Below, piece after piece: positions 36,593 to 64,000 of a DNA stretch of 64,000 nt. The notes beneath the pieces were generated by a model. That model ran no database searches and was not told where the DNA came from. It saw nothing but the letters and a program-made list of their open reading frames with translations. Made by a program: the position numbers and the translations under genes. Position 1 is the stretch's first letter, and the number at the start of each line of letters is the position of its first letter. Source of the stretch: Escherichia phage saus132; sequence record NC_047884.1; one strand, 5' to 3'.

Positions 36593-36599
36593 TTAAATT

Positions 36600-37602: not shown

Positions 37603-37679
37603 TGGTAGGGGTGGTGGGATTCGAACCCACAAAACCTGAATTTTAAGTCCAGTACCTATGCCAATTCGATTACACCCCC
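37603..37679 (-). tRNA. tRNA-Leu (anticodon UAA), short variable loop
   Basis: T-arm GTGGG-TTCGAAT-CCCAC; anticodon loop CTTAAAA; 77 nt. Confidence 0.45.
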
Positions 37680-37687
37680 ATGTAATC

Positions 37688-38041
37688 TTAGCGAATCTCT
37701 AAACCCTGGAAATATCGAGGGAATGGAGAGCCAACTTCAAAATTGATGCCCCAGTTAAGTTCAACGAGTTCAGATTTATTAAGATCTAGGCCATTACCTT
37801 CAAAGATATAGCCGTAAACCGCAGGGAACATAGCTGCTAGATCTTCCATATCGGAATGAGCATTGTGTTCTTCACGTAACTGCTCAAACTCTTCAAAGAA
37901 CTTTTCTAGGAAGAACTCAGGTACGATGAACGTTACCACATCAGTAGAATCATCAGTACGATACACCGTAGCTTGGAACAAGCCAACACCTAAAAGGTTT
38001 ATTGCCGGAGTAGTAAAAATATCCATCTTAACCTCGCTCAA
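37688..38041 (-). CDS. hypothetical protein
   Basis: 117-aa ORF. Confidence 0.5.
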   Translation of the reverse strand: MSEVKMDIFTTPAINLLGVGLFQATVYRTDDSTDVVTFIVPEFFLEKFFEEFEQLREEHNAHSDMEDLAAMFPAVYGYIFEGNGLDLNKSELVELNWGINFEVGSPFPRYFQGLEIR

Positions 38042-38213
38042 TGTCTAGAGAAATACCACATTCAGGATTAATACCAGAACCATTACAATATGTACAAACG
38101 TATGTATTATACCGTGTATCACCGGGTTCAGCATCGTTCCACTCACCTACTCCGAAGCATTTTGGGCAGGCACACTCTTCTAGCTCTTGCTTGAGTTCTT
38201 GAAATTTGGACAT
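38028..38213 (-). CDS. small zinc-finger protein
   Basis: 61 aa; CPKCFGVGEW and CTYCNGSG motifs. Confidence 0.4.
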   Translation of the reverse strand: MSKFQELKQELEECACPKCFGVGEWNDAEPGDTRYNTYVCTYCNGSGINPECGISLDIERG

Positions 38214-38221
38214 ATAGTCTC

Positions 38222-38410
38222 CTAGTTAATTACTTTTGAGGCTTCTAAAGCATTGACGTAGTAAACGTCTTCTACTTTATACATATAGTCTACTACTTTG
38301 TCCATAGCATGTAGTTCAGATGTAGCCTTTACTAGTCTGTACCCTTGTTTAAACTCGTCCGAATGTTCTCTATCTTGTGCAAATTTAACAGAAACTATGA
38401 ATAATTCCAT
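38222..38410 (-). CDS. hypothetical small protein
   Basis: 62-aa ORF. Confidence 0.4.
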   Translation of the reverse strand: MELFIVSVKFAQDREHSDEFKQGYRLVKATSELHAMDKVVDYMYKVEDVYYVNALEASKVIN

Positions 38411-38429
38411 TAGTTGTCCTTATTTAATT

Positions 38430-38507
38430 TGGTGGCTCCCGGAGGATTCGAACCTACCTACCTTTCGCTTATGAGGCGACGGCTCATACCAAATGAGCTT
38501 GAGAACC
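38430..38507 (-). tRNA. tRNA-Met-type (anticodon CAU), third CAU copy
   Basis: T-loop TTCGAAT; anticodon arm GTCGC-CTCATAA-GCGAA; CCA encoded. Confidence 0.5.
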
Positions 38508-38512
38508 AAATT

Positions 38513-38606
38513 TGGAGGAAGATGCCAGATTCGAACTGGCACACCGTGTCTCCACAGCTACTGGCTGTTTAGCAAACAGCTCCCTTACCTTTAGGGTTAA
38601 TCTTCC
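38513..38606 (-). tRNA. tRNA-Ser (anticodon GCU), long variable arm
   Basis: 94 nt; perfect acceptor GGAAGAT/ATCTTCC; anticodon arm GCTGT-TTGCTAA-ACAGC. Confidence 0.6.
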
Positions 38607-38626
38607 AAATTTATGAATATATTATA

Positions 38627-39028
38627 TTAGAAATTTAGCTTCATGGCAAGAAAATTTTTCAAGTTTTCTGTATTCATTTCATCTAAATCCATGAGGGAAG
38701 TAAACCCATTTAGTTTTTTAGCAAAATTCTCACCAGCAGAATCATTATCGCCTACGGCTACTACTTTAAAAGGTTGTAATTTTAGCTGCTTTAGCAATGC
38801 TTTGCTAGGGGAAGATCCTAGCATTGCTAGTGCGGGATATCCCGCGTTGTGTAGTGCCACAGCTTTAAATACAGATTCTGCAACTAATACTAGGTCTTCA
38901 TTACCTGTAAGAGTTTCTAAACCCCATAGACATTGAGTAGAAGAATGCGTAAAATATTTAGCTTCAGAAGGACATTTTCCATGACCTTTAGCTGCACTAG
39001 GGTTATATGTTTGATATCCACGTAACAT
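38627..39028 (-). CDS. Toprim-like small protein (possibly N-terminally disrupted)
   Basis: 133 aa; VVAVGDNDSAG acidic motif; short out-of-frame ATG ORF directly upstream. Confidence 0.35.
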   Translation of the reverse strand: MLRGYQTYNPSAAKGHGKCPSEAKYFTHSSTQCLWGLETLTGNEDLVLVAESVFKAVALHNAGYPALAMLGSSPSKALLKQLKLQPFKVVAVGDNDSAGENFAKKLNGFTSLMDLDEMNTENLKNFLAMKLNF

Positions 39029-39213
39029 GCCAGAGAAATCATACAGTGGAACTGTTAACCATCCATGTGGAGAGAGCCAACAGTGATACTTATCACTATC
39101 AAAGCCCCTAGATTAAAGATGTTGTTTTAACTCGTCAACAGTCATATATGACTCCTATCTATAATTTATAGAATATATTATATAGAAAATTTCGGCATTA
39201 AGCAAGTGAAATT

Positions 39214-39510
39214 TTACTGAACACTGCACTGATACACTTGTTTGATACGTGTCACTGACTTCTTAGTTGGATTGATAGAAGAACCTTGCCACCAACGTGA
39301 TTCTGAGCTGAGAACAGCACCAGGAACAGCTTGTTCTTTTGGCAGAACAATATCAAAACATTGCTCACCCATATTATCTTTAATGTGTGACCAAATATCC
39401 AAAGTAAATCGTTCTAGCTTATTACAAACTTGAACTTGACAAAGTTCCTGTTGTGGAGCAGCAAATACAGAAGTAGATACTAGAGTCAATGCAAGTACAA
39501 TGCGTTTCAT
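39214..39510 (-). CDS. secreted protein with signal peptide
   Basis: start set at ATG after GAGAGG RBS; MKRIVLALTLVSTSVFAAPQ signal sequence. Confidence 0.5.
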   Translation of the reverse strand: MKRIVLALTLVSTSVFAAPQQELCQVQVCNKLERFTLDIWSHIKDNMGEQCFDIVLPKEQAVPGAVLSSESRWWQGSSINPTKKSVTRIKQVYQCSVQ

Positions 39511-39540
39511 ATTTGATTCCTCTCTCAAATTTATAAATAT

Positions 39541-39569
39541 ATTATACAGAAATTTTCTATATTAAGCAA
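39541..39569 (-). promoter_or_regulatory. T5-type early promoter
   Basis: TATAAT 39541-39546, TTGCTT 39564-39569, 17-bp spacer, conserved leader. Confidence 0.6.
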
Positions 39570-39616
39570 GTGAAAATTTCTGTATAATAGCCCTCTAAGC
39601 GAGGGCTATAACTACT

Positions 39617-40309
39617 TTATTTGTTAACGCGTACAAAGTATCCTTTATAGGCTCCCATAATAGAGTTACCTAAGAATACTAGCCACATTGCTAGGATTGC
39701 ATAAGATGCACCTGTAGATTGAGCAGTTACAAGCCAAATGTATACAGTACCAATGTTAATAGCAATCCAGATCAGCCATTGTTCAGCATATTGTTTGACC
39801 ATAAGCCACATAGCAATCACACTACCAACCGCAGTAAATGCGTCAAGCATTGGGAATGGATCAGCGGTAGTAGCAAGGAAGCTGCCGTAACCTAAAGTAG
39901 CTACTGCTAGAATCCCTAGAGTCAGCAGAGCTTGGGCTTTAGTCAGAACCTTAGTTGGAACATCTGGCAGATTACTTGGCTTATTTTTATGCCATAAGTA
40001 CATTCCATAAAACTGCATAGGAACGTAGTATAGCAGGTTTAGTGCAGCGTTACCATAAAGATCTGCGTTTAAAGCTGTAATACCATATGTAAGAACACCC
40101 ACTAAGCCCCAAATATAGTTGGAAACACGTCCTTTTGCAACCAGAATAACACAAACCACATTGGTTATTGCAGTAGCCCAATCTAGAGCTGTACCATTAT
40201 AGTTTGCTAAACTAATGAAGACAACCGCTATGAACAGCCACAGATATTCCAGAGGTTTCCAGTTTTTAAAGTCATTTACGAGATAGTTAGTCATATTAAA
40301 ACTCTCCAA
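39617..40309 (-). CDS. pnuC: nicotinamide riboside transporter PnuC-like
   Basis: 230 aa polytopic membrane protein; SNYIWGLVGVLTYG and WHKN region resemble PnuC. Confidence 0.6.
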   Translation of the reverse strand: MESFNMTNYLVNDFKNWKPLEYLWLFIAVVFISLANYNGTALDWATAITNVVCVILVAKGRVSNYIWGLVGVLTYGITALNADLYGNAALNLLYYVPMQFYGMYLWHKNKPSNLPDVPTKVLTKAQALLTLGILAVATLGYGSFLATTADPFPMLDAFTAVGSVIAMWLMVKQYAEQWLIWIAINIGTVYIWLVTAQSTGASYAILAMWLVFLGNSIMGAYKGYFVRVNK

Positions 40310-41351
40310 CGTTAAAGTGATGAATCAGCCAGTCTACTGCGTTTACTGCTTCGTCCATACGAACTTTGTAGTCCGGGGAGTCGATGTAAACAGTACGCCC
40401 TTCAGGGAACTGATTTGGAAATTCTTTCTTCATCTGCTCGAACAGTTCAGAAGTAATTGAACGATCGGAGTTAATACGTAAACCATCATCTACCCACTTG
40501 ACAGTAGGCGCTAGAACAATTACTAAATCGTAATGTTCTTCTTTTGCAATTGCTGTAACCACAGGGTTCTTACTATGTTCATAAAGTCTGTGGTAGAACT
40601 CAGTAATAAAAGCATTTGTATCCACAAACATGATCTTATTTGCAGTACGTTCTGCTTCAAACTCTAGCTCTTTGTGTCTGAACGCAATTTTACTATAGTC
40701 TTCGCTGGTAAGCAGATTTTCGTTACCAACTAGATCAACTTCACAATACGTTCGGCCATATTCTTCTACCCACGAAGTGTTGTATAGCTTCGCAAGGTAT
40801 TTTGTTAAAGTAGTCTTTCCTGAGCTTTCAGTCCCAATGATTACAACCTTACGCACGTAATCTTTACGAACTACGCTAGGAAGAAACTCCCAATACTTCA
40901 TAAGATCATTACGAATCATTGTAGCTGAGATTGGAACACGAGTCCGATCAGAATCTACAATATAATGACCAAACTTCGGCAGATATTTCTTATATTCTGC
41001 ATCATAGTCTAGTTCGCTAGAGAAAATGGTGATCTCAGGCAAATGTCCGTAATTTTCATTAAGGATTCTAGCATATTCCGGCCAACCATTCGGATATTCA
41101 GGAATATCATCTTCAATAGTGTACTCTACCGAAATGTGCTCAATATCCGCGTAAGTTTGTTCTAACCAACGAAGTCGATTCTTTAACTGTAATACTTCCT
41201 GATCACGTGTGTTCTGCTTATCCAACCAACGATTATCATGACTAACTACAACAATAACTCGTTCACACATAGTTGCTGCTGTGTTTATTAGGTTAATATG
41301 ACCACGCGTTAATGGTGCGAACTTACCAATTACTAGACCAGTCTTAATCAT
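40296..41351 (-). CDS. nadR: NadR-like bifunctional NMN adenylyltransferase / ribosylnicotinamide kinase
   Basis: nucleotidyltransferase motif GKFAPLTRGH; Walker A GTESSGKTTL in C-terminal half; start set at ATG after GAGAGG RBS. Confidence 0.65.
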   Translation of the reverse strand: MIKTGLVIGKFAPLTRGHINLINTAATMCERVIVVVSHDNRWLDKQNTRDQEVLQLKNRLRWLEQTYADIEHISVEYTIEDDIPEYPNGWPEYARILNENYGHLPEITIFSSELDYDAEYKKYLPKFGHYIVDSDRTRVPISATMIRNDLMKYWEFLPSVVRKDYVRKVVIIGTESSGKTTLTKYLAKLYNTSWVEEYGRTYCEVDLVGNENLLTSEDYSKIAFRHKELEFEAERTANKIMFVDTNAFITEFYHRLYEHSKNPVVTAIAKEEHYDLVIVLAPTVKWVDDGLRINSDRSITSELFEQMKKEFPNQFPEGRTVYIDSPDYKVRMDEAVNAVDWLIHHFNVGEF

Positions 41352-41381
41352 ATTTGATTCCTCTCTCAAATTTATAAATAT

Positions 41382-41410
41382 ATTATACAGAGAATTTAGC
41401 ATTCAAGCAA
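41382..41410 (-). promoter_or_regulatory. T5-type early promoter
   Basis: TATAAT 41382-41387, TTGCTT 41405-41410, 17-bp spacer. Confidence 0.6.
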
Positions 41411-41623
41411 TCGAATTTTTTAACTTTTTAGTGGAAAAAATCTCAAGGCATTTAGTGGTAGCACGTTGTTGCTACAATAATAGTATATGATTCTAAAGAA
41501 TTAAAGAATTAAATACTAAAGACCTTAGTTGAATAACTTATGGGCTTTTCTTTTGCCTTAAATACAGAAAAGCCCGCGCTCTCGGAGGAAACGCGGGCTT
41601 ATTTCGAAGATTACGTGTAACTA

Positions 41624-42568
41624 TTACTTATTACGCATATCCATAATCATCTGGCCATCATAACCAGTACCTACAACAGTCTGAGGAACGCCACCCTGAT
41701 ATTTTTCAGCGCGTTTCATATCAACTTCCAGCTGTTTCCAGCGAATCATCTCTGGAGTGATGGTACGCTGCAGAGCGGTGTTAGCTTCAGCTTCTTTCTT
41801 AGCCGCATACAGTTTAGCATCTGCGTCACGTTCGTTAGCTACTGCCATATTTTCACGAGCAGAACGATCAGCCTCAGCTTGCTTAACTTTCTGCTGTGCT
41901 TCTTGTTCAACACGAGCTAGTTCAGCTTTTGCAGCGTTAACTTGTTCTTCACGAACTTTGGTGTTTTGTACCTGTTCCATGATTACCGGTGGCAGAGTAA
42001 TATCCTGAAGGAATACTTGCTTAACGGTGTAGCCATAAGGACGCGCATACTCTTCTACTTCTTGCTGAATAGCGGTTTGCAGTTGAGCCTGAATCTTAGC
42101 GTCGAACAGATCTTGTGCTTTTGGTACAGACTTACCAAACTCACGAATCGTAGACAGCATCTTCTCTTCAACGTACTTGTTCAGAGCTTGATCCTGAGTA
42201 CCTGCGTTAACACGGTTCATAGGAGCTTTAGCACCATCAAACTGCAACATAACGGTAATGTCAACTGTAGACTTAAACTTATCCTGGCTAGGAACCTGAA
42301 GTTTATCCAGTTTCATAGAAATATCTTTCGTACTAAAAGTATCAAAAGAGGCGAATGGGTTGACAATATGGAACCCCGGCAATACAGGATTAGGACTAAC
42401 TTTACCCAGGAAAGTCTGAGTTTTAACCGTACCGTCCTGAACAACTGTATAGGAATTGAGAGCCAGAATAAGAGCGCCAAGACCAACTACAGCACCAACA
42501 CCCCAACGTTTAATAGTACGAATTACTTTTTGATCGGAAGTCAGTTCTTTAGTGTTTTTAGTAAACAT
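41624..42568 (-). CDS. SPFH/band-7 (prohibitin/HflC-like) membrane protein
   Basis: 314 aa; N-terminal TM; FLQDITLPPVIMEQV motif and long coiled coil. Confidence 0.55.
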   Translation of the reverse strand: MFTKNTKELTSDQKVIRTIKRWGVGAVVGLGALILALNSYTVVQDGTVKTQTFLGKVSPNPVLPGFHIVNPFASFDTFSTKDISMKLDKLQVPSQDKFKSTVDITVMLQFDGAKAPMNRVNAGTQDQALNKYVEEKMLSTIREFGKSVPKAQDLFDAKIQAQLQTAIQQEVEEYARPYGYTVKQVFLQDITLPPVIMEQVQNTKVREEQVNAAKAELARVEQEAQQKVKQAEADRSARENMAVANERDADAKLYAAKKEAEANTALQRTITPEMIRWKQLEVDMKRAEKYQGGVPQTVVGTGYDGQMIMDMRNK

Positions 42569-42579
42569 ATATTTCCTTA

Positions 42580-42780
42580 TTATTTAGAAGAGTTAGCTAC
42601 TACAGTTACTTTAGTTGCAGAAATAAACAGGCTAGCATCCACAGCAAATTCAGGAGCTTTGATATCTCCGTTATGAAATATGACTATACCGGAGACTACT
42701 TCAAATGCTAGCGCTGTAACATCGGTGGTATTTACTTGTGAATGTTCACCTACTACTTTTACTATATATCGTGTTTTCAC
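42580..42780 (-). CDS. hypothetical small protein
   Basis: 66 aa, GTG start with AGGAAA RBS, downstream of SPFH gene. Confidence 0.4.
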   Translation of the reverse strand: MKTRYIVKVVGEHSQVNTTDVTALAFEVVSGIVIFHNGDIKAPEFAVDASLFISATKVTVVANSSK

Positions 42781-42806
42781 TTTATTTTCCTAGCAGTTAA
42801 TAAAAT

Positions 42807-42881
42807 TGGCCGAGGTGACAGGATTCGAACCTGCATAAAGGAATTTAGAAGACTCCTGCCTATCCCTTAGACTACACCCCG
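42807..42881 (-). tRNA. tRNA-Arg (anticodon UCU)
   Basis: T-arm GCAGG-TTCGAAT-CCTGT; anticodon arm GGAGT-CTTCTAA-ATTCC; CCA encoded. Confidence 0.6.
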
Positions 42882-56451: not shown

Positions 56452-57204
56452 TTACACCTTCCCCATATCCTTAAAGATATCGTAGAATGCTTTAGACTCT
56501 GGTGAGCGAACGTTGTCGATCAGTTCGATCATAGAGAAAGGAGAGTTTTCGTACTTCTCATAGACTTCCATAAGAAGTGCTAGACCTGAATCACCCTTGA
56601 TGTCTTTCTGAGCTATATCTCCACAGATAATTAGACGACAATCTTGTCCGACACGAGTCAAGAGACAGATCATTGCTTCAACGGAGATATTCTGAGCTTC
56701 ATCGACAATTACATAGGAGTTGTTGAAAGTTCGGCCACGGGCATGTTCGATAGCCAGGAATTTGATTTTCTGACGTTCGACATATCCTTTGTAGGCGTGA
56801 TCACCGATTGCCCATTTCATGCCATCGGCTATTGGTTCCAACCAAGGCTCTAGCTTTTCTGCTAGATCACCTGGGAGCATACCAAGAGATTTACCTAGAG
56901 GTTCGTTCGGACGCACGAGGATCACTTGCTCAATATCTGAGTGAATGTCTACGAGTTCCTGAGCTGCAAGAACGGACGGAATAAAGGTTTTACCAGTACC
57001 TGGTTCACCGATACCCACAGTCACTGTGTTGTTCTTGATCATATTGATATATGATTTTTGCTCACGGTTTTTACCAACTAGGGATTTAGCAACTGGATTG
57101 GCGTAATCACCAGAGAAATCTGCTTGAATTACGTTACTCTCATACTTGTTGCCACGCTTTCTTGAACCATTGCGGTTCTCTCTTTTTTGACGTGCTTTTC
57201 CCAT
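56452..57204 (-). CDS. phoH: PhoH-like ATPase
   Basis: Walker A GEPGTGKTF; start set at ATG after AGGAG RBS (track start is GTG at 57213). Confidence 0.75.
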   Translation of the reverse strand: MGKARQKRENRNGSRKRGNKYESNVIQADFSGDYANPVAKSLVGKNREQKSYINMIKNNTVTVGIGEPGTGKTFIPSVLAAQELVDIHSDIEQVILVRPNEPLGKSLGMLPGDLAEKLEPWLEPIADGMKWAIGDHAYKGYVERQKIKFLAIEHARGRTFNNSYVIVDEAQNISVEAMICLLTRVGQDCRLIICGDIAQKDIKGDSGLALLMEVYEKYENSPFSMIELIDNVRSPESKAFYDIFKDMGKV

Positions 57205-57277
57205 AAATAACACTCCTATAGTGTACTTCGCTAACAGAGGATCAACAAAAAGATCTTGTTTATCAACTTACAAATAT

Positions 57278-57306
57278 ATTATACCAATATATGCGGGAGA
57301 AAGCAA
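57278..57306 (-). promoter_or_regulatory. T5-type early promoter for phoH
   Basis: TATAAT 57278-57283, TTGCTT 57301-57306, 17-bp spacer. Confidence 0.5.
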
Positions 57307-57498
57307 CTACAATTTTAAATAAGCCTATGATATTGCATTTAAATAAAAAATTTGCTTGCTTTTATTGGGAGATGTATGGTACTAGATAATCATTTTATAT
57401 CGCGTACACGGGCGCGTGATTATACTATTTTTAATAGAGGTTGGCAAATAAAATTTTTTGACTCAGATCATGTTACAGAACTTTATAGTAAAATATTG

Positions 57499-57527
57499 TT
57501 GACATCCGCCTTCGAATGAGTTATAAT
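57499..57527 (+). promoter_or_regulatory. consensus sigma70 promoter for nrdD (TTGACA-17-TATAAT)
   Basis: TTGACA 57499-57504, 17-bp spacer, TATAAT 57522-57527; GAAGGAGGG RBS before ATG 57557. Confidence 0.65.
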
Positions 57528-57556
57528 AGTAGTCTTAGTTAGAGAAGGAGGGTATA

Positions 57557-59431
57557 ATGAATCGCAATGAAGAACTAAAATATAAAGGAATGCAGTCCTT
57601 AATTCGAAACTGCAAAGAAATTATCGAAGGTTCAGCAGATGAAGAGCTGCTGTTTAATAATGCCAATAAGCCCTCAGAACGTTTCCCTACACAAAGGGAT
57701 ATGCTTGCAGGGGAATTGAGTAAATATCTGATTCTGGAAGAAATGCCAATCCAGATTCGAAATGCTCACATGATTGGTGATATTCACTTCCATGATGCTG
57801 ATTACGCTGCGTTAGGTATGACTAACTGTTGCCTGGTTGCTTTGGAAGATATGTTGAAGAATGGTATGAAGGTTGGTAATGCTGAAATCAGTACGCCAAA
57901 CTCCATTACTACTGCGGCTGCTATTACAGCTCAGATTATCACTCAGGTTAGCTCACACCAATATGGTGGTACTTCTGTAGACCGATTAGATGAAGTATTG
58001 GCTCCTTATGTTCGTAAGTCTTACGATAAGAATCATGCGTTTGCAAAACGTTGGACTAAGGATGAAGCCAAAGCATCTGTAATGGCTACGGAAATGACTG
58101 AGAAAGAAGTTTACGATGCCTGTCAAGGTCTAGAGTATGAAATCAATACGATGTTCAACTCTAATGGTCAGAGTCCATTTATTACCTTTGGTTTTGGTCT
58201 AGGAACTTCCTGGGAAGCACGTCTTGTACAGAAAGCAATCTTAGAAGTGCGTATGGATGGTTTGGGTATCAATAAACGTACAGCTATCTTCCCTAAACTG
58301 GTATTTGTTTTGCGTGATGGCGTAAATATGAAACCTGGTGATGTTAACTATGATATCAAGAAGTTAGCTATGAAATGTACTGCTGAACGTATGTATCCTG
58401 ACTACATCAGTTATGATAAGGTTGTAGAAGTTACGGGAGACTACAAAGTCTCTATGGGCTGTCGTTCATTCCTGGCTGCTGCGGAAGATGGTGAAACTTC
58501 TGGTCGTAACAACTTAGGCGTTGTTTCCGTAAACCTTCCTCGAATCGCTATCGAAGCGGAAGGAAATATTGATCTATTCTTCGATCTGCTTGAGCTGCGT
58601 GTGGATACCGCGTTAAAAGCATTGGAGTGGAGGGTTGATCGCTTAAAATACATCCAAGCTAAAGCTGCGCCCATCCTCTATATGTCAGGAGCCTTTGGAT
58701 TACGTCTGGGGCCAGATGAATATGTGTTTGATCATTTCTACAAGCGTGCTTCTGTATCTCTAGGATATATTGGTTGCCACGAAATGTTGCAGCTCATGTT
58801 TGGTAAAGATGTAGATACAATGTCTGAGTCTTGTATCAAGTTCGTTCAACGTGTGCTACAATACATGCGTGATCGTGCTGATCAGAAGAAGGAAGAGACT
58901 CAATTAGGGTATAGTCTGTATGCTACACCATCTGAATCTCTATGTGATCGCTTCTGTCGTCTAGATCGTGAGTATTTCCCAGAGCATGAAGATATTCTGG
59001 CTAAAGGATATTACACTAACTCTCATCACCTTGATGTGGAGCGTAAGGTTGCTCCGAACGTGAAGTTCGATTATGAGTCTAACTTTACCCCAATTGCTTC
59101 TGGTGGGTGCATTTCCTATGTGGAATTGCCTGATATGAAACGATTCCCAGATGCGCTGGAGTGGGTTATTAACTATGCTGCAAGTAAAGTTCATTACTTC
59201 GGTATTAATACTCCAGTAGACTCTTGTGGGGAATGTGGATTCTTGGGTGAAACTATAGCTTCTGAGGATGGTTTCAAATGCCCAATTTGTGGCAACCATG
59301 ATCCTGAGACTCTTGAGGTAACTCGTCGAGTTTGCGGATATCTTGGAAATCCAGGTGCTCGTCCATTTAACCCAGGTAAACAACATGAGGTTATGGGTCG
59401 AGTGAAACATCAGGACATTCGCGCTAAATAA
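57557..59431 (+). CDS. nrdD: anaerobic ribonucleoside-triphosphate reductase (class III RNR)
   Basis: 624 aa; C-terminal CPICG zinc site and TRRVCGYLG glycyl-radical motif. Confidence 0.8.
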   Translation: MNRNEELKYKGMQSLIRNCKEIIEGSADEELLFNNANKPSERFPTQRDMLAGELSKYLILEEMPIQIRNAHMIGDIHFHDADYAALGMTNCCLVALEDMLKNGMKVGNAEISTPNSITTAAAITAQIITQVSSHQYGGTSVDRLDEVLAPYVRKSYDKNHAFAKRWTKDEAKASVMATEMTEKEVYDACQGLEYEINTMFNSNGQSPFITFGFGLGTSWEARLVQKAILEVRMDGLGINKRTAIFPKLVFVLRDGVNMKPGDVNYDIKKLAMKCTAERMYPDYISYDKVVEVTGDYKVSMGCRSFLAAAEDGETSGRNNLGVVSVNLPRIAIEAEGNIDLFFDLLELRVDTALKALEWRVDRLKYIQAKAAPILYMSGAFGLRLGPDEYVFDHFYKRASVSLGYIGCHEMLQLMFGKDVDTMSESCIKFVQRVLQYMRDRADQKKEETQLGYSLYATPSESLCDRFCRLDREYFPEHEDILAKGYYTNSHHLDVERKVAPNVKFDYESNFTPIASGGCISYVELPDMKRFPDALEWVINYAASKVHYFGINTPVDSCGECGFLGETIASEDGFKCPICGNHDPETLEVTRRVCGYLGNPGARPFNPGKQHEVMGRVKHQDIRAK

Positions 59432-59518
59432 TGAATCAGCCAGGTTGCTAGTCGACCTGGCTTTTATTTTATTTGCTTTCGAGCTAAAACTTAGGTATAA
59501 TTGTACAAGGAGGGCTAA

Positions 59519-60205
59519 ATGGTACGAAGGAAGTTAGATAAAGACACTATCAATAAAGATTTAGAGCCTAGAAGAATTAAGCTAATAAGTGAGTATTCTG
59601 GAATCCTTAATAAAGGCACATTCATATGTAGTGTAGGTCATACATGGGAAGCTACTGTTAATAATGTAAGGAATAGCAAATCTGGCTGTCCAATATGCGC
59701 AGGTACTTTTAAACTTACTAAAGATTCGGTAAATGAAGGGTTACGTAGTAGGGGTATTACTCTTATTGGAGAGTATAAAAATAATGCTACTAAAACTCTT
59801 TTTGAATGTGAGCATGGGCATAGGTGGGAAGCCACAGTAGGCAATGTAAAGAATAAAAATTCTGGGTGTCCTGTGTGCGATACTGATTGGAATACCCCTG
59901 GTTTTATATACATTATGTGTAGTAGTATGGGAACTAAAATAGGAATTAGTATCTCTCCTGAAAGACGGTGGAAAGAGATAGTTAAAAGCTCCAATATACT
60001 AGATTTATATATTTTTGGTGTCTATTCAATAGATTCTGGTACCAAATCTAAAAGTAGGTCTATCGAGAAACAGACTCATGAATATTTTTCAGAATATAGA
60101 TTAAAGTATACAGGATTTGCTGGATGTACTGAATTCTTTGATATATCTCCCATAGCCGTAGAAAAGCACTTAATTAATAATGGGTGTATAAAGGTAGAAA
60201 AATAA
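59519..60205 (+). CDS. T5orf172-domain protein with two zinc-ribbon repeats
   Basis: two repeats GH(T/R)WEATV.NV.N..SGCP.C, then GFIYIMCSSMGTKIGISISPERRWKEI core. Confidence 0.55.
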   Translation: MVRRKLDKDTINKDLEPRRIKLISEYSGILNKGTFICSVGHTWEATVNNVRNSKSGCPICAGTFKLTKDSVNEGLRSRGITLIGEYKNNATKTLFECEHGHRWEATVGNVKNKNSGCPVCDTDWNTPGFIYIMCSSMGTKIGISISPERRWKEIVKSSNILDLYIFGVYSIDSGTKSKSRSIEKQTHEYFSEYRLKYTGFAGCTEFFDISPIAVEKHLINNGCIKVEK

Positions 60206-60270
60206 ATAAAGTACTTGCTTATATTACTTTTATTTGATATTATATTATTATAAATTAGAGAGGAGGGTGT

Positions 60271-60630
60271 ATGAAATTAAAACCATTTATTGTTGTATCT
60301 AAACTAGGGCATTATCACGTAGGAGTAGATACAATTCAGGAAGCTATTTTTGCTGCTACAGGTGATTACTCATTACTAGAAGGTATTGGGTATCCTACAT
60401 TACTAGGAGACTTCGTAGAGCAAGAACTAGATATTACTGTCTATAATCCTATATATGAAGAACCTGAAGACTTAAAAGAGACTCTAGAATTTGTATACTG
60501 GAACCACTTACAAGTATTTAATGTTACCTCTAATGGCACAGAGGATTTCTCTTCTGCTATTAAGTATTATATTAAACAAGTTTACTATGATTATTTCTAT
60601 GAGGATATTGGAGCGGAGCTAAAAGTATGA
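60271..60630 (+). CDS. hypothetical acidic protein
   Basis: 119-aa ORF; GAGGAGGG RBS. Confidence 0.5.
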   Translation: MKLKPFIVVSKLGHYHVGVDTIQEAIFAATGDYSLLEGIGYPTLLGDFVEQELDITVYNPIYEEPEDLKETLEFVYWNHLQVFNVTSNGTEDFSSAIKYYIKQVYYDYFYEDIGAELKV

Positions 60631-60830
60631 AAAACGTAAAACATCTTAAGTATCGCTTAATTTACAACGGACGTATGGAAATAGAAGATCTAGCTCAGCT
60701 AGCGATCAATTCAGATGAAGTTACAGTTCGTGCTTTGTCCATCGAGAAGCTGCGTGCTTCTTACGAAAATCGTATTATGGAATTAGAGGAGAAACTTTAT
60801 GGCATTCTCGAGTCAGAAGCTACCAGGTGA
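60627..60830 (+). CDS. hypothetical protein
   Basis: 67-aa ORF, ATGA overlap. Confidence 0.4.
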   Translation: MKNVKHLKYRLIYNGRMEIEDLAQLAINSDEVTVRALSIEKLRASYENRIMELEEKLYGILESEATR

Positions 60831-61044
60831 AAATGTTAGTCTTATTGATCTGAATAAGCTCAATCAAGAGTTTCAGGGAGTTTTAATGAAGCACTGGGAA
60901 ACTGGTTATAAGGATGGTGTTGAATCCTGTGCTACTATGCTAGAAGTTCTTGCTGATAACCTAGTGGAGAAAGGCAATAAAGAATTAGCTGAGCTGTTAG
61001 ACAGTATTGGGCAAAACTTTAGAGAACAGGTGAAAAATGCGTAG
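60799..61044 (+). CDS. hypothetical protein
   Basis: 81-aa ORF; start uncertain. Confidence 0.4.
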   Translation: MAFSSQKLPGENVSLIDLNKLNQEFQGVLMKHWETGYKDGVESCATMLEVLADNLVEKGNKELAELLDSIGQNFREQVKNA

Positions 61045-61888
61045 ACTAATCGTTGTTAGTGGTGCAGGTTTGAGTGTAGATAGTGGTGTTCGTGCTTTCC
61101 GTACTGATACTGCTAGTGGGAAATCCTTGTGGGATGAGTACGATCTAGAGGAAGTATGTAGCTTGCCTAACTTTGAAGCTGGCTTCCGTCGCTTCTGTGG
61201 TGAAGATGATCCTAACTACTTCAGTGCTCGTTTCCCTGGCATTGATGAAGATGGTAACGATCTGTATCTCAAGACTCATGAGTTCTACAACATGCGTCGT
61301 CAGGAATTACAGACTGTTGAGCCTAACATTGCCCATCTGCGAATTGCAGAATGGTTCCAGCGTTATGGTGCGGATAGCGTGAAGAACTTCACTACTAACG
61401 TTGATGACCTTCTGGAGCGCGCTGGTATCCCTCGTGATGAAATCATCCATGCTCACGGATACTTGAAAGAGGTGATCTATCGTCGGGGTCGCAATCAAAT
61501 CATCGAAGATGTTGGATACACTGCAATTGTTCCTGAAGATTACGAATGGGTAAAACCAAACGTGGTGTTCTTTGGTGAAACAGCTCCGTGGTACATGGGT
61601 CAGATCAACCTGTTTGATACGCTTACTAGCAATGATATGGTTATTGTGGTGGGTTGTAGCAACCAAGTTATCAACTTCAACTGGGAATTATTCCCTGCTG
61701 TATGTCGTGGAACTAAGATGATGGTTGTTAACCCTCAAGTTCGTTATGATGAACAGCTTGAGTATGAGAAACGTGGTGTTACTGTATGGCGGGCTGGAGC
61801 TGCCGAAGTTTTTGGTAACAAGAATTTCATTGGTCAAGTAGAAGCCTTTATGGAAGGAACTATTTATGCACCGCAAGAGCATGTGTGA
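61037..61888 (+). CDS. Sir2-family NAD-dependent protein (deacylase/ADP-ribosyltransferase-like)
   Basis: GAGLSVDSGVRAFR NAD-binding motif, TTNVDDL, HAHG catalytic His, FFGE and VVGCS motifs; no CxxC zinc module. Confidence 0.65.
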   Translation: MRRLIVVSGAGLSVDSGVRAFRTDTASGKSLWDEYDLEEVCSLPNFEAGFRRFCGEDDPNYFSARFPGIDEDGNDLYLKTHEFYNMRRQELQTVEPNIAHLRIAEWFQRYGADSVKNFTTNVDDLLERAGIPRDEIIHAHGYLKEVIYRRGRNQIIEDVGYTAIVPEDYEWVKPNVVFFGETAPWYMGQINLFDTLTSNDMVIVVGCSNQVINFNWELFPAVCRGTKMMVVNPQVRYDEQLEYEKRGVTVWRAGAAEVFGNKNFIGQVEAFMEGTIYAPQEHV

Positions 61889-62048
61889 TCTTTTAGTATG
61901 GCCGGACGGTAGTTGGTGCTACCGTTTCGAATTTGCTACCGATGACTTCTCATGGAAGAGTGATGATTTCTGCGTTATCTATGAGGATACAGCAGAATGG
62001 AAAGAGTTCCTTATTAAGGAGGGAGAATATGGTGAAGAAGATTTTTAA
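61866..62048 (+). CDS. hypothetical small protein
   Basis: 60-aa ORF. Confidence 0.35.
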   Translation: MHRKSMCDLLVWPDGSWCYRFEFATDDFSWKSDDFCVIYEDTAEWKEFLIKEGEYGEEDF

Positions 62049-62214
62049 GGGTATCTGGAAGGGTCTAGTATGGTTTGTCAACCTAATTGGTATGATTACC
62101 ATTTATTCTCTGTTCCTATCTGTTATGTGGGGTAAAGGTGAGCTGAAGGTTCCGGTTCCTTTTACTGATGAAGTTAAAGTCTGGACGTGGGATGCTACTG
62201 GTGGAAATAAGTAA
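62029..62214 (+). CDS. small membrane protein
   Basis: start at ATG after AGGAGGGAG RBS; hydrophobic core. Confidence 0.4.
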   Translation: MVKKIFKGIWKGLVWFVNLIGMITIYSLFLSVMWGKGELKVPVPFTDEVKVWTWDATGGNK

Positions 62215-62707
62215 TACTCCTGTGATTTTCCTGGATATTGATGGGGTACTCAATTCGAGCATCTCTCACCATCATGCTCTAGACAGTGAAAAGCTGTTCT
62301 TTGGCAGTGATTGGGTTTATAAGCCATTACTCCAGGTTTTTCAGAACTTTCTTAAACCCTCCCCAATAATGATTGTTGGGGTCTCTTCATGGTTTTCTGT
62401 ACGAAATGAAATGGAGAACGTTCAGATTATGACCGGACTCGGTTTGATCGATCGTTTCCTTGGTACAACAGATTTTACTGGAGGTGGTTTATATCGGGGT
62501 AATTCTGTTTTACGTTTCGTCGAAAAACATAAGCTCAAGCATTGGTGTGTCTTAGACGATGCTGGTGCTATGATGTATCAATTTCCTACTGTTATTGTAA
62601 ATGGCAGGACTGGAGTAAACCTTCAAGATTTAAATGCTATAAGCTATATGCTGGAATTTAGTCCAGATCTTGAAATGTGTAAGGCTCTTCAGAAACTTAA
62701 GGTATAA
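62192..62707 (+). CDS. HAD-like hydrolase (putative phosphatase)
   Basis: FLDIDGVLN HAD motif I near N-terminus; start set to in-frame ATG. Confidence 0.5.
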   Translation: MLLVEISNTPVIFLDIDGVLNSSISHHHALDSEKLFFGSDWVYKPLLQVFQNFLKPSPIMIVGVSSWFSVRNEMENVQIMTGLGLIDRFLGTTDFTGGGLYRGNSVLRFVEKHKLKHWCVLDDAGAMMYQFPTVIVNGRTGVNLQDLNAISYMLEFSPDLEMCKALQKLKV

Positions 62708-62709
62708 GC

Positions 62710-63138
62710 ATGTTCAATAATATTTTCATGAAAGAGGTAAATCCTATGCTCCTCAACTTCTGGCGTTCTCTCCCTAATGGTATGTATAATGAAACCATCA
62801 ATCTGCTTAAGATTTGGTGTGAGAATAATGATATCTTCTTATCCTTTAAAGGCCCACTAGAGGAAGCTCCATGTATTGGAGTTAGTGTGGATTTAGGTGA
62901 GGGAGTAGAAGAGATTGTAGACTGGAAAGAACTCGATGAAATGGGTCTGGTTTTTGCCTTAAATCATAAGCTGTTTATGCCTGCAAATCACCGTCTTATT
63001 GTAAATTATCGCACTGGTGAAGCTCCTGCTTTCCAGGTAAATGAACGTGAGGGCTGGTCATATTCGCCCGAGGAAGTAAATGAGGGGATTCAGAAACTTC
63101 GTCGTTTCGGGTATATGATCCCAGGTTTAACTGCTTAA
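62710..63138 (+). CDS. hypothetical protein, paralog A
   Basis: 142 aa; AAGGAGG-type RBS; similar in sequence to the next ORF. Confidence 0.5.
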   Translation: MFNNIFMKEVNPMLLNFWRSLPNGMYNETINLLKIWCENNDIFLSFKGPLEEAPCIGVSVDLGEGVEEIVDWKELDEMGLVFALNHKLFMPANHRLIVNYRTGEAPAFQVNEREGWSYSPEEVNEGIQKLRRFGYMIPGLTA

Positions 63139-63147
63139 GGAGGCAGA

Positions 63148-63543
63148 ATGGAACAAGTATTTTGGCGTCAGATAGATCCTAGTTTGGTAGAGCGTGCTGA
63201 GGGGCTCCTTGCACGTTGGTTGGGGGTTGACAAGGTTAGTGTAACATTTCCGTTTACTTCTGTAACAGACCCTAGTGTAGGTGTCTTTGTGGACGAAGAT
63301 GAAGATGATGGTTGGGAAGCTGACTGGAATGAATTGTCCAGTATGGGCTTGATTGTTGCCCTCAACTTCTCTATATTCCATCCACGTGGCTTAGCCATTA
63401 CACGTGACCCCGAAACTGGTGAATCCCCTTATCTTTTGCAAGTAGAAGATGATATTTGGGAGTACACCGAAGATATTCTCGAAGAAGCTAAAGGTCAATT
63501 AAATCGCATTGGGATCTATGTTCCAGGCCTAAATGATGATTGA
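63148..63543 (+). CDS. hypothetical protein, paralog B
   Basis: 131 aa; shares WxELxxMGL(V/I)xALN and C-terminal IxVPGLxxx pattern with 62710 ORF. Confidence 0.5.
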   Translation: MEQVFWRQIDPSLVERAEGLLARWLGVDKVSVTFPFTSVTDPSVGVFVDEDEDDGWEADWNELSSMGLIVALNFSIFHPRGLAITRDPETGESPYLLQVEDDIWEYTEDILEEAKGQLNRIGIYVPGLNDD

Positions 63544-63567
63544 TTTTCATTAGTCCAATCCTGATTA

Positions 63568-63596
63568 CCGAGTCATTTTGGCTCGGTTTTCTCTGT
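63568..63596 (+). terminator. putative intrinsic terminator
   Basis: ACCGAGTCATTTTGGCTCGGT hairpin followed by TTTTCTCTG. Confidence 0.5.
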
Positions 63597-63633
63597 GCTC
63601 AAAGACACTGATAGCACCTTCGGAAAAATTTTA

Positions 63634-63662
63634 CTTGCAGGATGCTCAAAATCTTGATATAA
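63634..63662 (+). promoter_or_regulatory. T5-type promoter on the plus strand (TTGCAG-17-TATAAT)
   Basis: same -10 plus leader motif (TATAATATTTATATTGAATTGAGAGAC) as the minus-strand promoters, oriented rightwards. Confidence 0.5.
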
Positions 63663-64000
63663 TATTTATATTGAATTGAGAGACATTAGTAAAAATTGAT
63701 TTTGCTAATTTTTCTTGTTTACAATCCGCAATACGGAACAGTTAGGCTGCCCCATTAAGGGTTGTTTTAACTATTACTAGTGTTTATACTGCATTAGTTA
63801 ATTATCAATTAAGTGATCTGCGTACCCTGAATTCGGAAAGGTAAATCCAAACCGTGCATATTTAGCTCGTTATATAGGCAGAGCTTTATATGGGGGTGCG
63901 AACGAAAAGAGCAGCGAATGGTGACACGTCCAGTAGCCACCTACCAATAGGATAGTGAGGGCAATCAGAATCGGCTTAGCGGCCAATGACCTAGGTTCTG

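What the first reader, a model, noticed from the sequence alone, without database searches (positions are those of the whole stretch)
59519..63543. Plus-strand accessory block after nrdD: T5orf172 protein, Sir2, HAD hydrolase and paralogs
Eleven consecutive plus-strand ORFs follow nrdD and end at a strong terminator. They combine a Zn-ribbon T5orf172 nuclease-like protein, a Sir2-family enzyme, a HAD phosphatase and a duplicated gene pair. This looks like a modular counter-defence or host-takeover island rather than core replication functions.
Basis: inference. Interest (0 to 1): 0.55.

Follow-up and report, generated by a model that had tools for sequence, protein, structure and literature searches.

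The report
T5-phage Sir2–phosphatase operon plus homing endonuclease
This stretch is the known early operon T5.100–T5.107 of a T5-like phage: a sirtuin, a small phosphatase and two paralogous proteins of unknown function, already predicted (not tested) to repair cut RNA, with a selfish homing-endonuclease gene inserted in front of it.

Summary
The window is bases 1-64000 of phage T5-like chee130_1 (MF431736.1, 100% identical). There are ten plus-strand genes, not eleven, and a terminator plus promoter separate them from nrdD.

The block has two parts.
- 59519-60205 is a T5orf172-type homing-endonuclease gene with two CHCC zinc fingers. It sits in a clean ~744-bp insertion in the operon leader. 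About 15 of ~443 T5-like records carry this allele.
- 60271-63543 is the operon homologous to T5.100-T5.107. Its core is a zinc-less CobB-like Sir2, a capless HAD_SAK_2 phosphatase and two DUF7415 paralogues. The core is present in ~98% of Markadamsvirinae records, so it is not an accessory island. Its 5' small genes and the Sir2 allele are mosaic.

All scored T5 homologues were 'Not Fit' in a published knock-down screen on E. coli K-12.

Iyer et al. 2022 already described the Sir2-HAD neighbourhood in T5-like phage SP15. They predicted NAD+-dependent RNA-end repair. That is my best but untested explanation.

DUF7415 gives a confident model with no known fold relative and no conserved polar residues, so it is probably non-catalytic.

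One new lead: a homologous HAD sits in an NAD+-reconstitution (NARP1) operon in a Serratia phage.

Overall this is ordinary and largely already known.

The parts
59438..59462 (+). Intrinsic terminator closing the nrdD transcription unit
   Evidence: 10-bp stem followed by a T run. Folds at -16.1 kcal/mol, z -4.3. Invariant in five T5-like phages. Annotated as a terminator in T5 and HASG4.
59473..59501 (+). Promoter-like site of the operon (TTGCTT, 17 nt, TATAAT). In this phage it now precedes the inserted endonuclease gene.
   Evidence: Coordinates. Conserved in the alignment. T5 annotates a promoter at the homologous place. Its function here is inferred.
59504..60247 (+). Inserted cassette of about 744 bp carrying the homing-endonuclease gene. 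It ends in a second promoter-like copy (TTGCTT at 60215, TATTAT at 60238).
   Evidence: Flanks are contiguous in beppo, OSY-STA, 26175III, JLBYU43 and T5. Homology stops at about 59503 and resumes at about 60248.
59519..60205 (+). T5orf172-type (GIY-YIG clan) homing-endonuclease-like gene, 228 aa, with two CHCC treble-clef zinc fingers in the N-terminal half
   Evidence: Pfam DUF4379 6e-13, CapR 2e-8, MUG113 1e-7, T5orf172 1.5e-5. phrog_681 'endonuclease' 3e-49. Conserved IYIM...KIG...PERR...TEFF motifs. Only 15 records carry an allele of at least 80% identity, while 428 records hold relatives below 60% identity at other genome sites. The architecture matches the T5orf172 homing endonucleases of Barth et al. 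2023.
60271..60630 (+). o2, 119 aa, acidic (pI 4.3), function unknown. Homologue of T5.100. Variable: two alleles about 50% identical, and absent in some relatives.
   Evidence: phrog_11748 1e-64. Presence/absence matrix. About 41% identical homologues lie next to Sir2 in My1, Pantoea phage AAS21 and contig L101. No Pfam or PDB match, and no match to the rV5 gp079 protein.
60627..60830 (+). o3, 67 aa, function unknown. Homologue of T5.101. GenBank uses the later start at 60675.
   Evidence: phrog_5236 2e-45 over the full 67 aa. 86-97% identical in most Markadamsvirinae.
60799..61044 (+). o4, 81 aa, function unknown, variable. No tblastn match in T5.
   Evidence: phrog_5827 1e-29. Matrix.
61037..61888 (+). 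Sir2-family protein, 283 aa, homologue of T5.102. CobB-like class III core. Lacks the four zinc-binding cysteines and carries a 28-aa insertion.
   Evidence: Pfam SIR2 1e-21. Best PDB match is E. coli CobB, 1e-16. Below NCBIfam equivalog cut-offs, and no PADLOC defence-Sir2 hit. Invariant GAGLS, FR, YNxRR, TTNVD, HxHG and FFGE motifs, and no conserved Cys tetrad.
61866..62048 (+). o6, 60 aa, acidic, function unknown. Same PHROG family as T5.103 and T5.104.
   Evidence: phrog_5116 3.5e-29. T5.103 and T5.104 are both assigned to phrog_5116.
62032..62214 (+). o7, 60 aa, GTG start with a strong ribosome-binding site. One predicted membrane helix. Variable.
   Evidence: phrog_11166 1e-43. Maximum 19-residue hydropathy 1.93, pI 9.7. 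RBS AAGGAGG. No tblastn match in T5, HASG4 or ESCO30.
62168..62707 (+). HAD_SAK_2 phosphatase, 171-179 aa, homologue of T5.105. Capless HAD fold with all catalytic motifs intact.
62710..63138 (+). DUF7415 paralogue a, 142 aa, pI 4.7. Homologue of T5.106.
   Evidence: Pfam PF24187 9e-37. 31% identical to the next gene.
63148..63543 (+). DUF7415 paralogue b, 131 aa, pI 4.1. Homologue of T5.107.
63567..63587 (+). Intrinsic terminator closing the operon
   Evidence: 9-bp stem followed by a T run. Folds at -15.4 kcal/mol, z -4.1. T5 and HASG4 annotate a terminator at the same relative position.

Best explanation
The interval holds two independent things.

(1) A selfish T5orf172-type homing-endonuclease gene. 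It has two zinc-finger DNA-binding repeats and a GIY-YIG-like nuclease domain. It is inserted into the leader of the next operon, just after the -10 element, and brings a second promoter-like copy with it.

(2) The conserved early operon T5.100-T5.107. Its core most likely works as an NAD+-consuming phosphate-processing module.
- The zinc-less, CobB-like Sir2 uses NAD+ to attack an anionic phosphate-bearing substrate. The published prediction is the 2'-phosphate of RNA ends left by metal-independent RNases, as KptA/Tpt1 does.
- The capless HAD_SAK_2 phosphatase removes terminal phosphates, either from RNA ends or from the ADP-ribose-phosphate by-product.
- The two acidic DUF7415 paralogues are non-catalytic partners or binders.
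- No phage RNA ligase was found, so sealing would be left to a host ligase.

The benefit would be conditional, for example rescue of tRNA or mRNA cut by host defence nucleases.

Shown: gene content, intact catalytic motifs, the insertion boundaries, near-universal conservation of the core, and no knock-down phenotype on K-12. Inferred: every biochemical step and the counter-defence role.
For: Identity:
- 100% match to MF431736.1.
- One-to-one synteny with T5.100-T5.107, including T5's annotated promoter and terminators.

Homing endonuclease:
- Clean ~744-bp insertion against five empty sites.
- This allele occurs in 15 of ~443 relatives, and distant paralogues lie at many other sites.
- The CapR/zinc-finger plus T5orf172 architecture next to ribonucleotide reductase genes is the pattern described by Barth et al. 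2023, PMC10448857.

Core module:
- HAD in 435 records and DUF7415 in 435 records, against 443 by DNA polymerase.
- Sir2 and HAD remain neighbours although their order is reversed in Pantoea phage AAS21 and contig L101.
- The catalytic motifs of Sir2 and HAD are invariant.
- The capless HAD fold resembles phosphatases that act on macromolecules.
- Sir2 keeps the YxxR pair. From established knowledge of SIRT5 and CobB, this pair binds an anionic group of the substrate.
- The orthologous Sir2 of phage rV5 lies beside an RnlA-type RNA ligase and a MazG-like enzyme.
- HAD_SAK_2 homologues lie about 3 kb from an RNA ligase gene in contigs L021 and L104.
- Iyer et al. 2022, PMC9503650, section 3.7.3, describe exactly this sirtuin plus 'Swiss-army-knife' HAD neighbourhood in T5-like phage SP15 and predict KptA-like RNA repair.
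- T5.100-T5.106 are 'Not Fit' in CRISPRi-ART, which fits a conditional function.
- The phage carries 28 tRNA genes.
Against: - No experiment exists for any gene of the operon.
- No RnlA-type RNA ligase, kinase, 2H or cREC partner was found in chee130_1 over bases 1-113900. The repair pathway would therefore be incomplete and depend on the host.
- The known RNA ligation routes do not obviously need 2'-phosphate removal (my own knowledge).
- Most of the 59 distant HAD loci in viral contigs have neither a ligase nor a Sir2 nearby.
- The closest non-T5 HAD sits in an NAD+-reconstitution operon instead.
- The CRISPRi-ART screen of T5 is insensitive: it called only 17 Fit genes, and nrdA, nrdB and pri were also 'Not Fit'.
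- DUF7415 and o2 have no assigned role.
Confidence: 0.45

Rival explanations
1. NAD+/ADP-ribose metabolite counter-defence rather than RNA repair. The HAD enzyme would dephosphorylate ADP-ribose-1''-phosphate or a related ADPR phosphate, as the Macro-domain Adpp of NARP1-AP does. Sir2 would handle NAD+/ADPR chemistry. Together they would blunt NAD+-depleting or ADPR-signalling host defences.
For: In Serratia phage ChuuTotoro, a HAD_SAK_2 gene 42% identical to this one overlaps by 4 bp the start of an Adps-Namat pair. The Namat matches PDB 9W5X at 1e-115, against 1e-48 for ordinary NAMPT. Osterman et al. 2026 (bioRxiv 10.64898/2026.01.28.702374) show that a phosphatase added to NARP1 overcomes the aRES defence by converting ADPR-1P to ADPR. 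Sir2 enzymes use NAD+. An NAPRTase-like or PRPP-synthetase-like gene lies within 8 kb of distant HAD homologues in three more viral contigs.
Against: Only three phage records carry the ChuuTotoro-type HAD, so the association is rare. The published phosphatase is a Macro domain, not a HAD. Homologues of the ChuuTotoro Adps and Namat genes were not searched for in chee130_1, and nothing annotated in bases 53400-113900 resembles them. A phage enzyme that consumes NAD+ does not obviously help against NAD+ depletion.
Confidence: 0.2
2. Host takeover by protein modification. Sir2 would deacylate or mono-ADP-ribosylate host or phage proteins early in infection, as T4 Alt/Mod enzymes do. The capless HAD would act as a protein phosphatase. 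DUF7415 would target or regulate them.
For: The closest solved relatives are the protein deacylases CobB and SIRT5. The catalytic His and NAD+-binding motifs are intact. The best structural matches of the HAD include the protein phosphatases MDP-1, SCP1 and UBLCP1. The operon lies in the early region with its own promoter.
Against: The structural zinc module of canonical deacylase sirtuins is missing, and the TQNID motif is changed to TTNVD. The score is far below the CobB equivalog cut-offs: 91 bits against 243. In rV5 the orthologue is embedded among RNA ligase and nucleotide enzymes, not regulators.
Confidence: 0.15
3. Nucleotide-pool housekeeping. The genes would simply extend the neighbouring nrdA/nrdB/nrdD/PhoH/thymidylate synthase cluster, with the HAD as a nucleotidase and Sir2 in a CobB-like metabolic role.
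For: The operon sits directly beside the nucleotide-metabolism cluster in every lineage examined. One DUF7415 protein is fused to a thymidylate-kinase-like domain. HAD enzymes include many nucleotidases.
Against: It is a separate transcription unit with its own terminator and promoter. The capless HAD lacks the cap domain usual for small-molecule HAD nucleotidases (inference from established HAD classification). Sir2 has no known role in dNTP synthesis. There is a single fusion among 139 family representatives.
Confidence: 0.1
4. No functional coupling. The block would be a collection of unrelated small early genes kept together only by shared descent within one phage family.
For: The Sir2-HAD-DUF7415 linkage was found only inside Demerecviridae-like phages. 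In T4-like phages HAD and DUF7415 lie far apart. Klebsiella relatives lack HAD, and the AAS21 and L101 lineages lack DUF7415.
Against: Sir2 and HAD stay within one gene of each other although their order is reversed in two divergent lineages. The genes have overlapping or abutting reading frames, which suggests coupled expression.
Confidence: 0.1

Closest known systems
Phage T5 early operon T5.100-T5.107 (AY543070; Wang et al. 2005 annotation)
   Same: Same position between nrdD and the origin-binding helicase gene. Same order: small genes, Sir2, small genes, HAD, two DUF7415 genes. Same terminator-promoter upstream and terminator downstream. HAD and o3 are 89% identical.
   Different: This phage has the inserted T5orf172 gene and the extra small genes o4 and o7. 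Its Sir2 is only 52% identical to T5's and carries a 28-aa insertion. It is closer to the Sir2 of Klebsiella and Phapecoctavirus phages, at 60-65%.
Sirtuin-centred predicted NAD+-dependent RNA-repair neighbourhoods, type 3 (phage SP15 type), Iyer, Burroughs, Anantharaman and Aravind 2022 (PMC9503650)
   Same: A sirtuin of the phage-specific clade is joined to a 'Swiss-army-knife' HAD phosphatase in a T5-like phage. SP15 itself carries the same Sir2, HAD and DUF7415 genes.
   Different: That description is computational only. The passages read mention neither the DUF7415 pair nor the o2 family, both of which co-occur with Sir2 here. No ligase, 2H or cREC partner was found in this phage.
KptA/Tpt1 RNA 2'-phosphotransferase pathway
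   Same: The proposed chemistry: NAD+ is used to remove an RNA 2'-phosphate, giving an ADP-ribose cyclic phosphate that further enzymes process.
   Different: KptA has the unrelated ART fold. No activity of this kind has been shown for any sirtuin. This is an analogy, not homology.
T5orf172 homing endonucleases with CapR-like zinc-finger repeats (Barth, Dunham and Seed 2023, PMC10448857)
   Same: Zinc-finger 'beads on a string' followed by a C-terminal T5orf172 nuclease domain. Free-standing gene beside a ribonucleotide reductase gene. Lies at a boundary of mosaic sequence.
   Different: Neither cleavage nor homing has been shown for this allele. It has two fingers, whereas the paralogue upstream of nrdD in ESCO30 has three.
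NARP1-AP (Adps, the Macro-domain phosphatase Adpp, and Namat; Osterman et al. 2026 preprint)
   Same: A phosphatase gene sits inside an NAD+-reconstitution operon. A HAD_SAK_2 homologue occupies such a position in Serratia phage ChuuTotoro.
   Different: Adpp is a Macro domain, not a HAD. No Adps or Namat gene lies in or beside the chee130_1 operon, and their presence elsewhere in the genome was not tested. The HAD substrate is unknown.

Membership tests
Sir2/sirtuin superfamily (Pfam PF02146) | Rossmann-type NAD+-binding core with GAGxS, FR, (T)QNID and catalytic HG motifs | tested here: met
   Pfam 1e-21. CobB alignment. GAGLS, FR, TTNVD (Q changed to T) and HxHG are invariant in six phage sequences.
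Canonical protein-deacylase sirtuins (CobB equivalog) | Four-cysteine zinc-binding module, and a score above the curated equivalog cut-off | tested here: not met
   There are no cysteines where CobB has its zinc ligands. NCBIfam score is 91.5 bits against a cut-off of 243.
Defence-type Sir2 NADases (ThsA, DSR, Sir2-HerA and similar) | Sequence match to defence-system Sir2 models | tested here: not met
   No PADLOC hit at E 0.01.
HAD superfamily phosphatase, HAD_SAK_2 family (PF18143) | DxDxV motif I, Ser/Thr motif II, basic motif III, DD motif IV, and the HAD Rossmannoid fold | tested here: met
Sirtuin-HAD predicted RNA-repair neighbourhood (Iyer et al. 2022, type 3) | A phage-clade sirtuin gene in a conserved neighbourhood with a SAK-type HAD phosphatase gene | tested here: met
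   The Sir2 and HAD genes lie 280 bp apart in one operon. The linkage is kept in T5, My1, AAS21 and L101.
Sirtuin-HAD predicted RNA-repair neighbourhood (Iyer et al. 2022, type 3) | Actual RNA end-healing activity (2'-phosphate or cyclic-phosphate removal) | not testable with these tools
   This needs biochemistry. No experimental paper was found.
Complete phage RNA-repair system (T4 Pnkp/Rnl type) | A phage-encoded RNA ligase and polynucleotide kinase | tested here: not met
   tblastn with rV5 RnlA and its neighbouring genes finds only Sir2 in chee130_1 bases 1-113900. No such gene is annotated in bases 53400-113900. Only an RnlA-type ligase was searched for.
T5orf172 homing endonucleases (GIY-YIG clan) | T5orf172/MUG113 nuclease domain joined to a DNA-binding module | tested here: met
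   MUG113 1e-7, T5orf172 1.5e-5, DUF4379 6e-13, CapR 2e-8. Conserved motifs.
T5orf172 homing endonucleases (GIY-YIG clan) | Sporadic presence/absence with precise boundaries at an otherwise conserved site | tested here: met
   A ~744-bp insertion against five empty sites. 15 of ~443 records carry it.
T5orf172 homing endonucleases (GIY-YIG clan) | Cleavage of the empty allele and super-Mendelian inheritance | not testable with these tools
   Requires mixed-infection crosses and nuclease assays.
Acb1 anti-CBASS phosphodiesterase (annotation seen on a DUF7415 homologue in Klebsiella phage Roth22) | Sequence or fold similarity to a solved Acb1 structure | tested here: not met

The most novel reading that the evidence does not exclude
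The Sir2, HAD_SAK_2, DUF7415 and o2 genes form an uncharacterised NAD+/ADP-ribose-centred anti-defence module. In this reading HAD_SAK_2 is a non-homologous equivalent of the ADPR-1''-phosphate phosphatase Adpp. The zinc-less sirtuin acts on phosphate-bearing substrates, which no sirtuin has been shown to do. The fold-orphan acidic DUF7415 proteins inhibit or sense a host immune protein. Rapid allele swapping of Sir2 between unrelated phage families would then reflect an arms race.
Probability: 0.2. Interest if true: 0.65.

Novelty: already known. Interest (0 to 1): 0.3.

Why it matters
T5-like phages are widely used model and therapeutic phages. Nearly all of them carry this sirtuin-phosphatase operon, yet no function has been shown for it. 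If the published RNA-repair prediction is right, it would be the first sirtuin acting on nucleic-acid phosphates. It would also add a second layer, beside the phage's own tRNA set, against tRNA-cleaving host defences. If the NAD+/ADP-ribose reading is right, it would extend the current picture of the phage-host contest over NAD+. In either case the present analysis mainly files the finding under what is already described. It adds a few testable leads: the DUF7415 and o2 co-occurrence with Sir2, the HAD gene beside NARP1, and the exact homing-endonuclease insertion site.

Tried and rejected
- o2 as the cREC-like protein that precedes Sir2 in rV5. Rejected: hhalign probability 0.35%. The profile search against PDB gave nothing below E 0.1; a marginal 2H-like hit, PH0099 at E 0.23, was dismissed.
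- Sir2 as a defence-type NADase. Rejected: no PADLOC hit.
- A phage RNA ligase or other rV5-type repair partners in chee130_1. None found.
- Systematic co-occurrence of HAD_SAK_2 with Sir2, DUF7415, an RNA ligase or NARP1 in 78 IMG/VR loci. Only T5-like contigs carry Sir2 and DUF7415. Among the 59 distant loci, 5 have a ligase and 3 have an NAPRTase- or PRPP-synthetase-like gene within 8 kb. This is too weak to decide between explanations.
- Close relatives of the ChuuTotoro HAD. None in IMG/VR, and three records among isolated phages.
- Rfam scan of window 57000-64000. No RNA family.
- Domain fusions of DUF7415. One thymidylate-kinase-like fusion among ten long proteins scanned.
- Literature searches for DUF7415 and for T5.100-T5.107. 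No papers.
- A phage Tn-seq preprint does not cover T5-like phages.

Full report
IDENTITY OF THE WINDOW. A megablast of 59400-63650 matches Bacteriophage T5-like chee130_1 (MF431736.1) and four sister isolates at 100% identity and at the same coordinates. The window is therefore the first 64 kb of that Epseptimavirus genome (Demerecviridae, Markadamsvirinae). It was published by Sváb et al. 2018, PMC5816814. GenBank annotates ten plus-strand CDS between nrdD and the next gene, P1301_0101 to P1301_0110.

CHECK OF THE OBSERVATION. The ORF list gives the same ten non-nested ORFs, not eleven. Every one matches a PHROG family, with E-values from 1e-29 to 1e-108, so all are conserved genes.
- Pfam confirms each named domain. 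The first protein has two DUF4379 treble-clef zinc fingers, a CapR hit, and a T5orf172/MUG113 domain. SIR2 scores 1e-21 and HAD_SAK_2 scores 3e-17. The last two proteins are DUF7415.
- The last two genes are 31% identical (E 2e-16), so they are true paralogues.
- The closing terminator at 63567-63587 folds at -15.4 kcal/mol, z -4.1.
It is followed by a promoter-like TTGCTT-17-TATAAT at 59473-59501.
- T5 annotates a terminator and a promoter at the homologous place. The block is a separate transcription unit.

THE FIRST GENE IS A SEPARATE, SELFISH INSERTION. I aligned the nrdD-o2 spacer with five relatives that lack the gene: beppo, OSY-STA, 26175III, JLBYU43 and T5. Homology runs to about 59503, just after the -10 TATAAT, and resumes at about 60248, just before the ribosome-binding site of o2. 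In those phages the two flanks are contiguous.
- The ~744-bp cassette holds the gene with its own AAGGAGG ribosome-binding site. It ends with a second promoter-like copy, TTGCTT at 60215 and TATTAT at 60238.
- Only 15 phage records carry an allele of at least 80% identity. A further 428 records hold relatives below 60% identity at many other genome positions, including T5 itself.
- The denominator is 443 records with a DNA polymerase at least 80% identical to this phage's.
- The protein keeps the IYIM...KIG...PERR...TEFF motifs. It has two CHCC fingers, while a paralogue placed upstream of nrdD in ESCO30 has three.
- This is the architecture and the genomic habit described for T5orf172 homing endonucleases by Barth et al. 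2023, PMC10448857. They report zinc-finger 'beads on a string', enrichment in T5-like phages, a third of neighbourhoods containing ribonucleotide reductase genes, and positions at boundaries of genetic exchange.
- Cleavage and homing have not been shown for this allele.

THE REST IS THE CONSERVED OPERON T5.100-T5.107. A tblastn matrix against 13 Demerecviridae loci, extended by an HMM search, gives this picture.
- Sir2 is present in all Markadamsvirinae examined, in Pectobacterium phage My1, in Klebsiella Sugarland-like phages, in Pantoea phage AAS21 and in contig L101.
- HAD is present in all of these except the Klebsiella phages.
- DUF7415 is present in Markadamsvirinae, My1 (one copy) and the Klebsiella phages (two copies).
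- Nothing of the operon is found at this locus in the Vibrio Ermolyevavirinae.
- Across the phage collection, HAD at 80% identity or more is in 435 records. DUF7415b at 60% or more is in 435. The block as DNA is in 441. The polymerase count is 443.
- The core is therefore near-universal in the subfamily and keeps its position between nrdD and the origin-binding helicase gene.
- Variation lies at the 5' end. o2 has two alleles about 50% identical or is absent, and o4 and o7 are sporadic.
- The Sir2 allele also varies. Against T5, NrdD, o3 and HAD are 89% identical, but Sir2 is 52% and o2 is 51%.
- The window's Sir2 is closer to those of Klebsiella Sugarland-like phages (63-65%) and Phapecoctavirus (about 60%) than to T5's. 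It shares a 28-aa insertion with the Klebsiella form. T5's Sir2 shares a C-terminal insertion with rV5's.
- The mosaic zone begins right at the endonuclease insertion site. This fits the 'nucleases at exchange boundaries' pattern, but it is only a correlation.

WHAT THE PROTEINS LOOK LIKE.
- Sir2. The best solved relatives are E. coli CobB (1e-16) and SIRT5. GAGLS, FR, the YNxRR pair, TTNVD and HxHG are invariant in six phage sequences. The four zinc-binding cysteines are absent and the canonical Q of TQNID is T. It scores far below the CobB equivalog cut-offs and matches no defence-system Sir2 model. It is an active-looking but atypical sirtuin. The retained YxxR pair is known from SIRT5 and CobB to bind an anionic acyl group (established knowledge). 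A phosphate would also fit; that is my inference.
- The family is small: 139 cluster representatives among 1.84 billion proteins. It consists mostly of 60-200-aa proteins that carry the C-terminal domain alone.
- The conserved columns are W, L, G, A and Y only, and both paralogues are acidic, pI 4.1 and 4.7. I read them as non-catalytic binders or adaptors.
- GenBank labels seen on DUF7415 homologues, 'exonuclease', 'tail tube protein' and 'anti-CBASS acb1', are unsupported.
- Small genes. o7 has one predicted membrane helix. o2, o4 and o6 are small and acidic.

WHAT IS ALREADY KNOWN. Iyer, Burroughs, Anantharaman and Aravind (Viruses 2022, PMC9503650, section 3.7.3) defined a phage-specific sirtuin clade found in three neighbourhood types.
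[quoted passage not shown] SP15 is a T5-like phage.
- They propose that the sirtuin acts like KptA, removing 2'-phosphates from RNA cut by metal-independent nucleases.
- I confirmed their second type. In rV5 the orthologous Sir2 lies next to an RnlA-type RNA ligase and a MazG-like enzyme.
- I found no experimental test of any of this.
- The CRISPRi-ART screen of T5 on E. coli BW25113 (Adler et al. 2025, PMC11879866) scored T5.100 to T5.106 as 'Not Fit'. The screen called only 17 Fit genes and also missed nrdA, nrdB and pri. It therefore shows at most that the operon is not strongly required on a laboratory host.

MECHANISM. My best explanation is the published one, stated a little more broadly: an NAD+-consuming module that processes phosphates on RNA ends or on ADP-ribose by-products, useful only on hosts that damage RNA.
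- For it: the persistent Sir2-HAD adjacency despite reversed order in AAS21 and L101, the ligase contexts of the Sir2 and HAD homologues, and the intact active sites.
- Against it: chee130_1 has no RnlA-type ligase, kinase, 2H or cREC gene in bases 1-113900. In addition, 59 distant HAD loci rarely have a ligase nearby.
- A rival that I could not exclude is an NAD+/ADP-ribose metabolite role. In Serratia phage ChuuTotoro, the closest HAD outside the T5-like group (42% identity) overlaps the start of an Adps-Namat NARP1 pair.
- A 2026 preprint shows that adding an ADPR-1''-phosphate phosphatase to NARP1 defeats the aRES defence. That phosphatase is a Macro domain, not a HAD.
- Only three records carry the ChuuTotoro-type HAD allele, so the weight of this lead is low.
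- Protein modification for host takeover, plain nucleotide housekeeping and 'no coupling' remain possible at lower probability.

VERDICT.
These are non-replicative genes, probably of conditional use.
- The block is not an accessory island. It is a near-universal operon with a mosaic 5' part, plus one unrelated selfish gene.
- The sequence, the operon and the leading functional hypothesis are all already in the literature, so novelty is low.
- The residual interest lies in the untested biochemistry of a zinc-less sirtuin, in the fold-orphan DUF7415 pair, and in the HAD-NARP1 lead.

Noticed in passing
L020:5001-8217 (Serratia phage vB_SmaM-ChuuTotoro, ON287369.1): A HAD_SAK_2 gene 42% identical to the window's overlaps by 4 bp the start of an Adps-like gene, which is followed by a Namat-like gene (a NARP1 NAD+-reconstitution pair; the Namat matches PDB 9W5X at 1e-115). 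This looks like a HAD-based counterpart of the Macro-domain 'NARP1-AP' operon. Only three phage records carry this HAD allele.
   Followed up: partly
L007:1914-4590 and L014:1-2497 (phages ESCO30 and JLBYU43): These Tequintaviruses carry an nrdD allele only 60% identical to the window's. A three-zinc-finger T5orf172 homing-endonuclease gene lies directly upstream and overlaps its start. This is a second endonuclease site at the same gene, linked to an allele replacement.
   Followed up: partly
window 63588-64159: About 570 bp of non-coding sequence lies between the operon terminator and the origin-binding helicase gene (annotated 'DNA primase C', starting at 64160). KKP_3831 and SUT_E1620 hold an extra 453-nt ORF in the equivalent spacer. 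There is no Rfam match up to position 64000.
   Followed up: partly
window 29041-42881, minus strand: ARAGORN finds 28 tRNA genes, although the record's paper reports 20. This near-complete tRNA set is relevant to any tRNA-directed host defence.
   Followed up: no
window 61037-61888; L002:5487-6305; L017:4813-5574; L009:8049-8882: Sir2 alleles are mosaic across unrelated phage families. The window's allele shares a 28-aa insertion with Klebsiella Sugarland-like phages. T5's allele shares a 12-aa C-terminal insertion with rV5. The flanking HAD and NrdD proteins are 89% identical between T5 and this phage.
   Followed up: partly
protein P0113 (515 aa, metagenomic): This is the only informative domain fusion found for DUF7415: the DUF7415 domain at residues 50-93 is followed by a thymidylate-kinase-like P-loop domain at 283-460.
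   Followed up: partly
L015:2977-3234 (Klebsiella phage Roth22): An 85-aa single-domain DUF7415 protein is annotated 'anti-CBASS protein acb1'. DUF7415 shows no sequence or fold similarity to any solved structure, so the label is probably an annotation error.
   Followed up: yes
L014:4418-4957 (JLBYU43); Shivani and SelmaRatti records: The HAD gene is annotated as two CDS in JLBYU43, which suggests an in-frame stop. It matches only partially in Shivani (residues 67-171) and SelmaRatti (residues 120-171). These natural disruptions are consistent with dispensability.
   Followed up: no
window 60271-60630; L008:7923-8213; L019:5512-5868; L101:3832-4188: The o2/T5.100 family (phrog_11748) is acidic and has no detectable homology to anything known. 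It accompanies Sir2 in four divergent T5-like lineages, as persistently as HAD does.
   Followed up: partly
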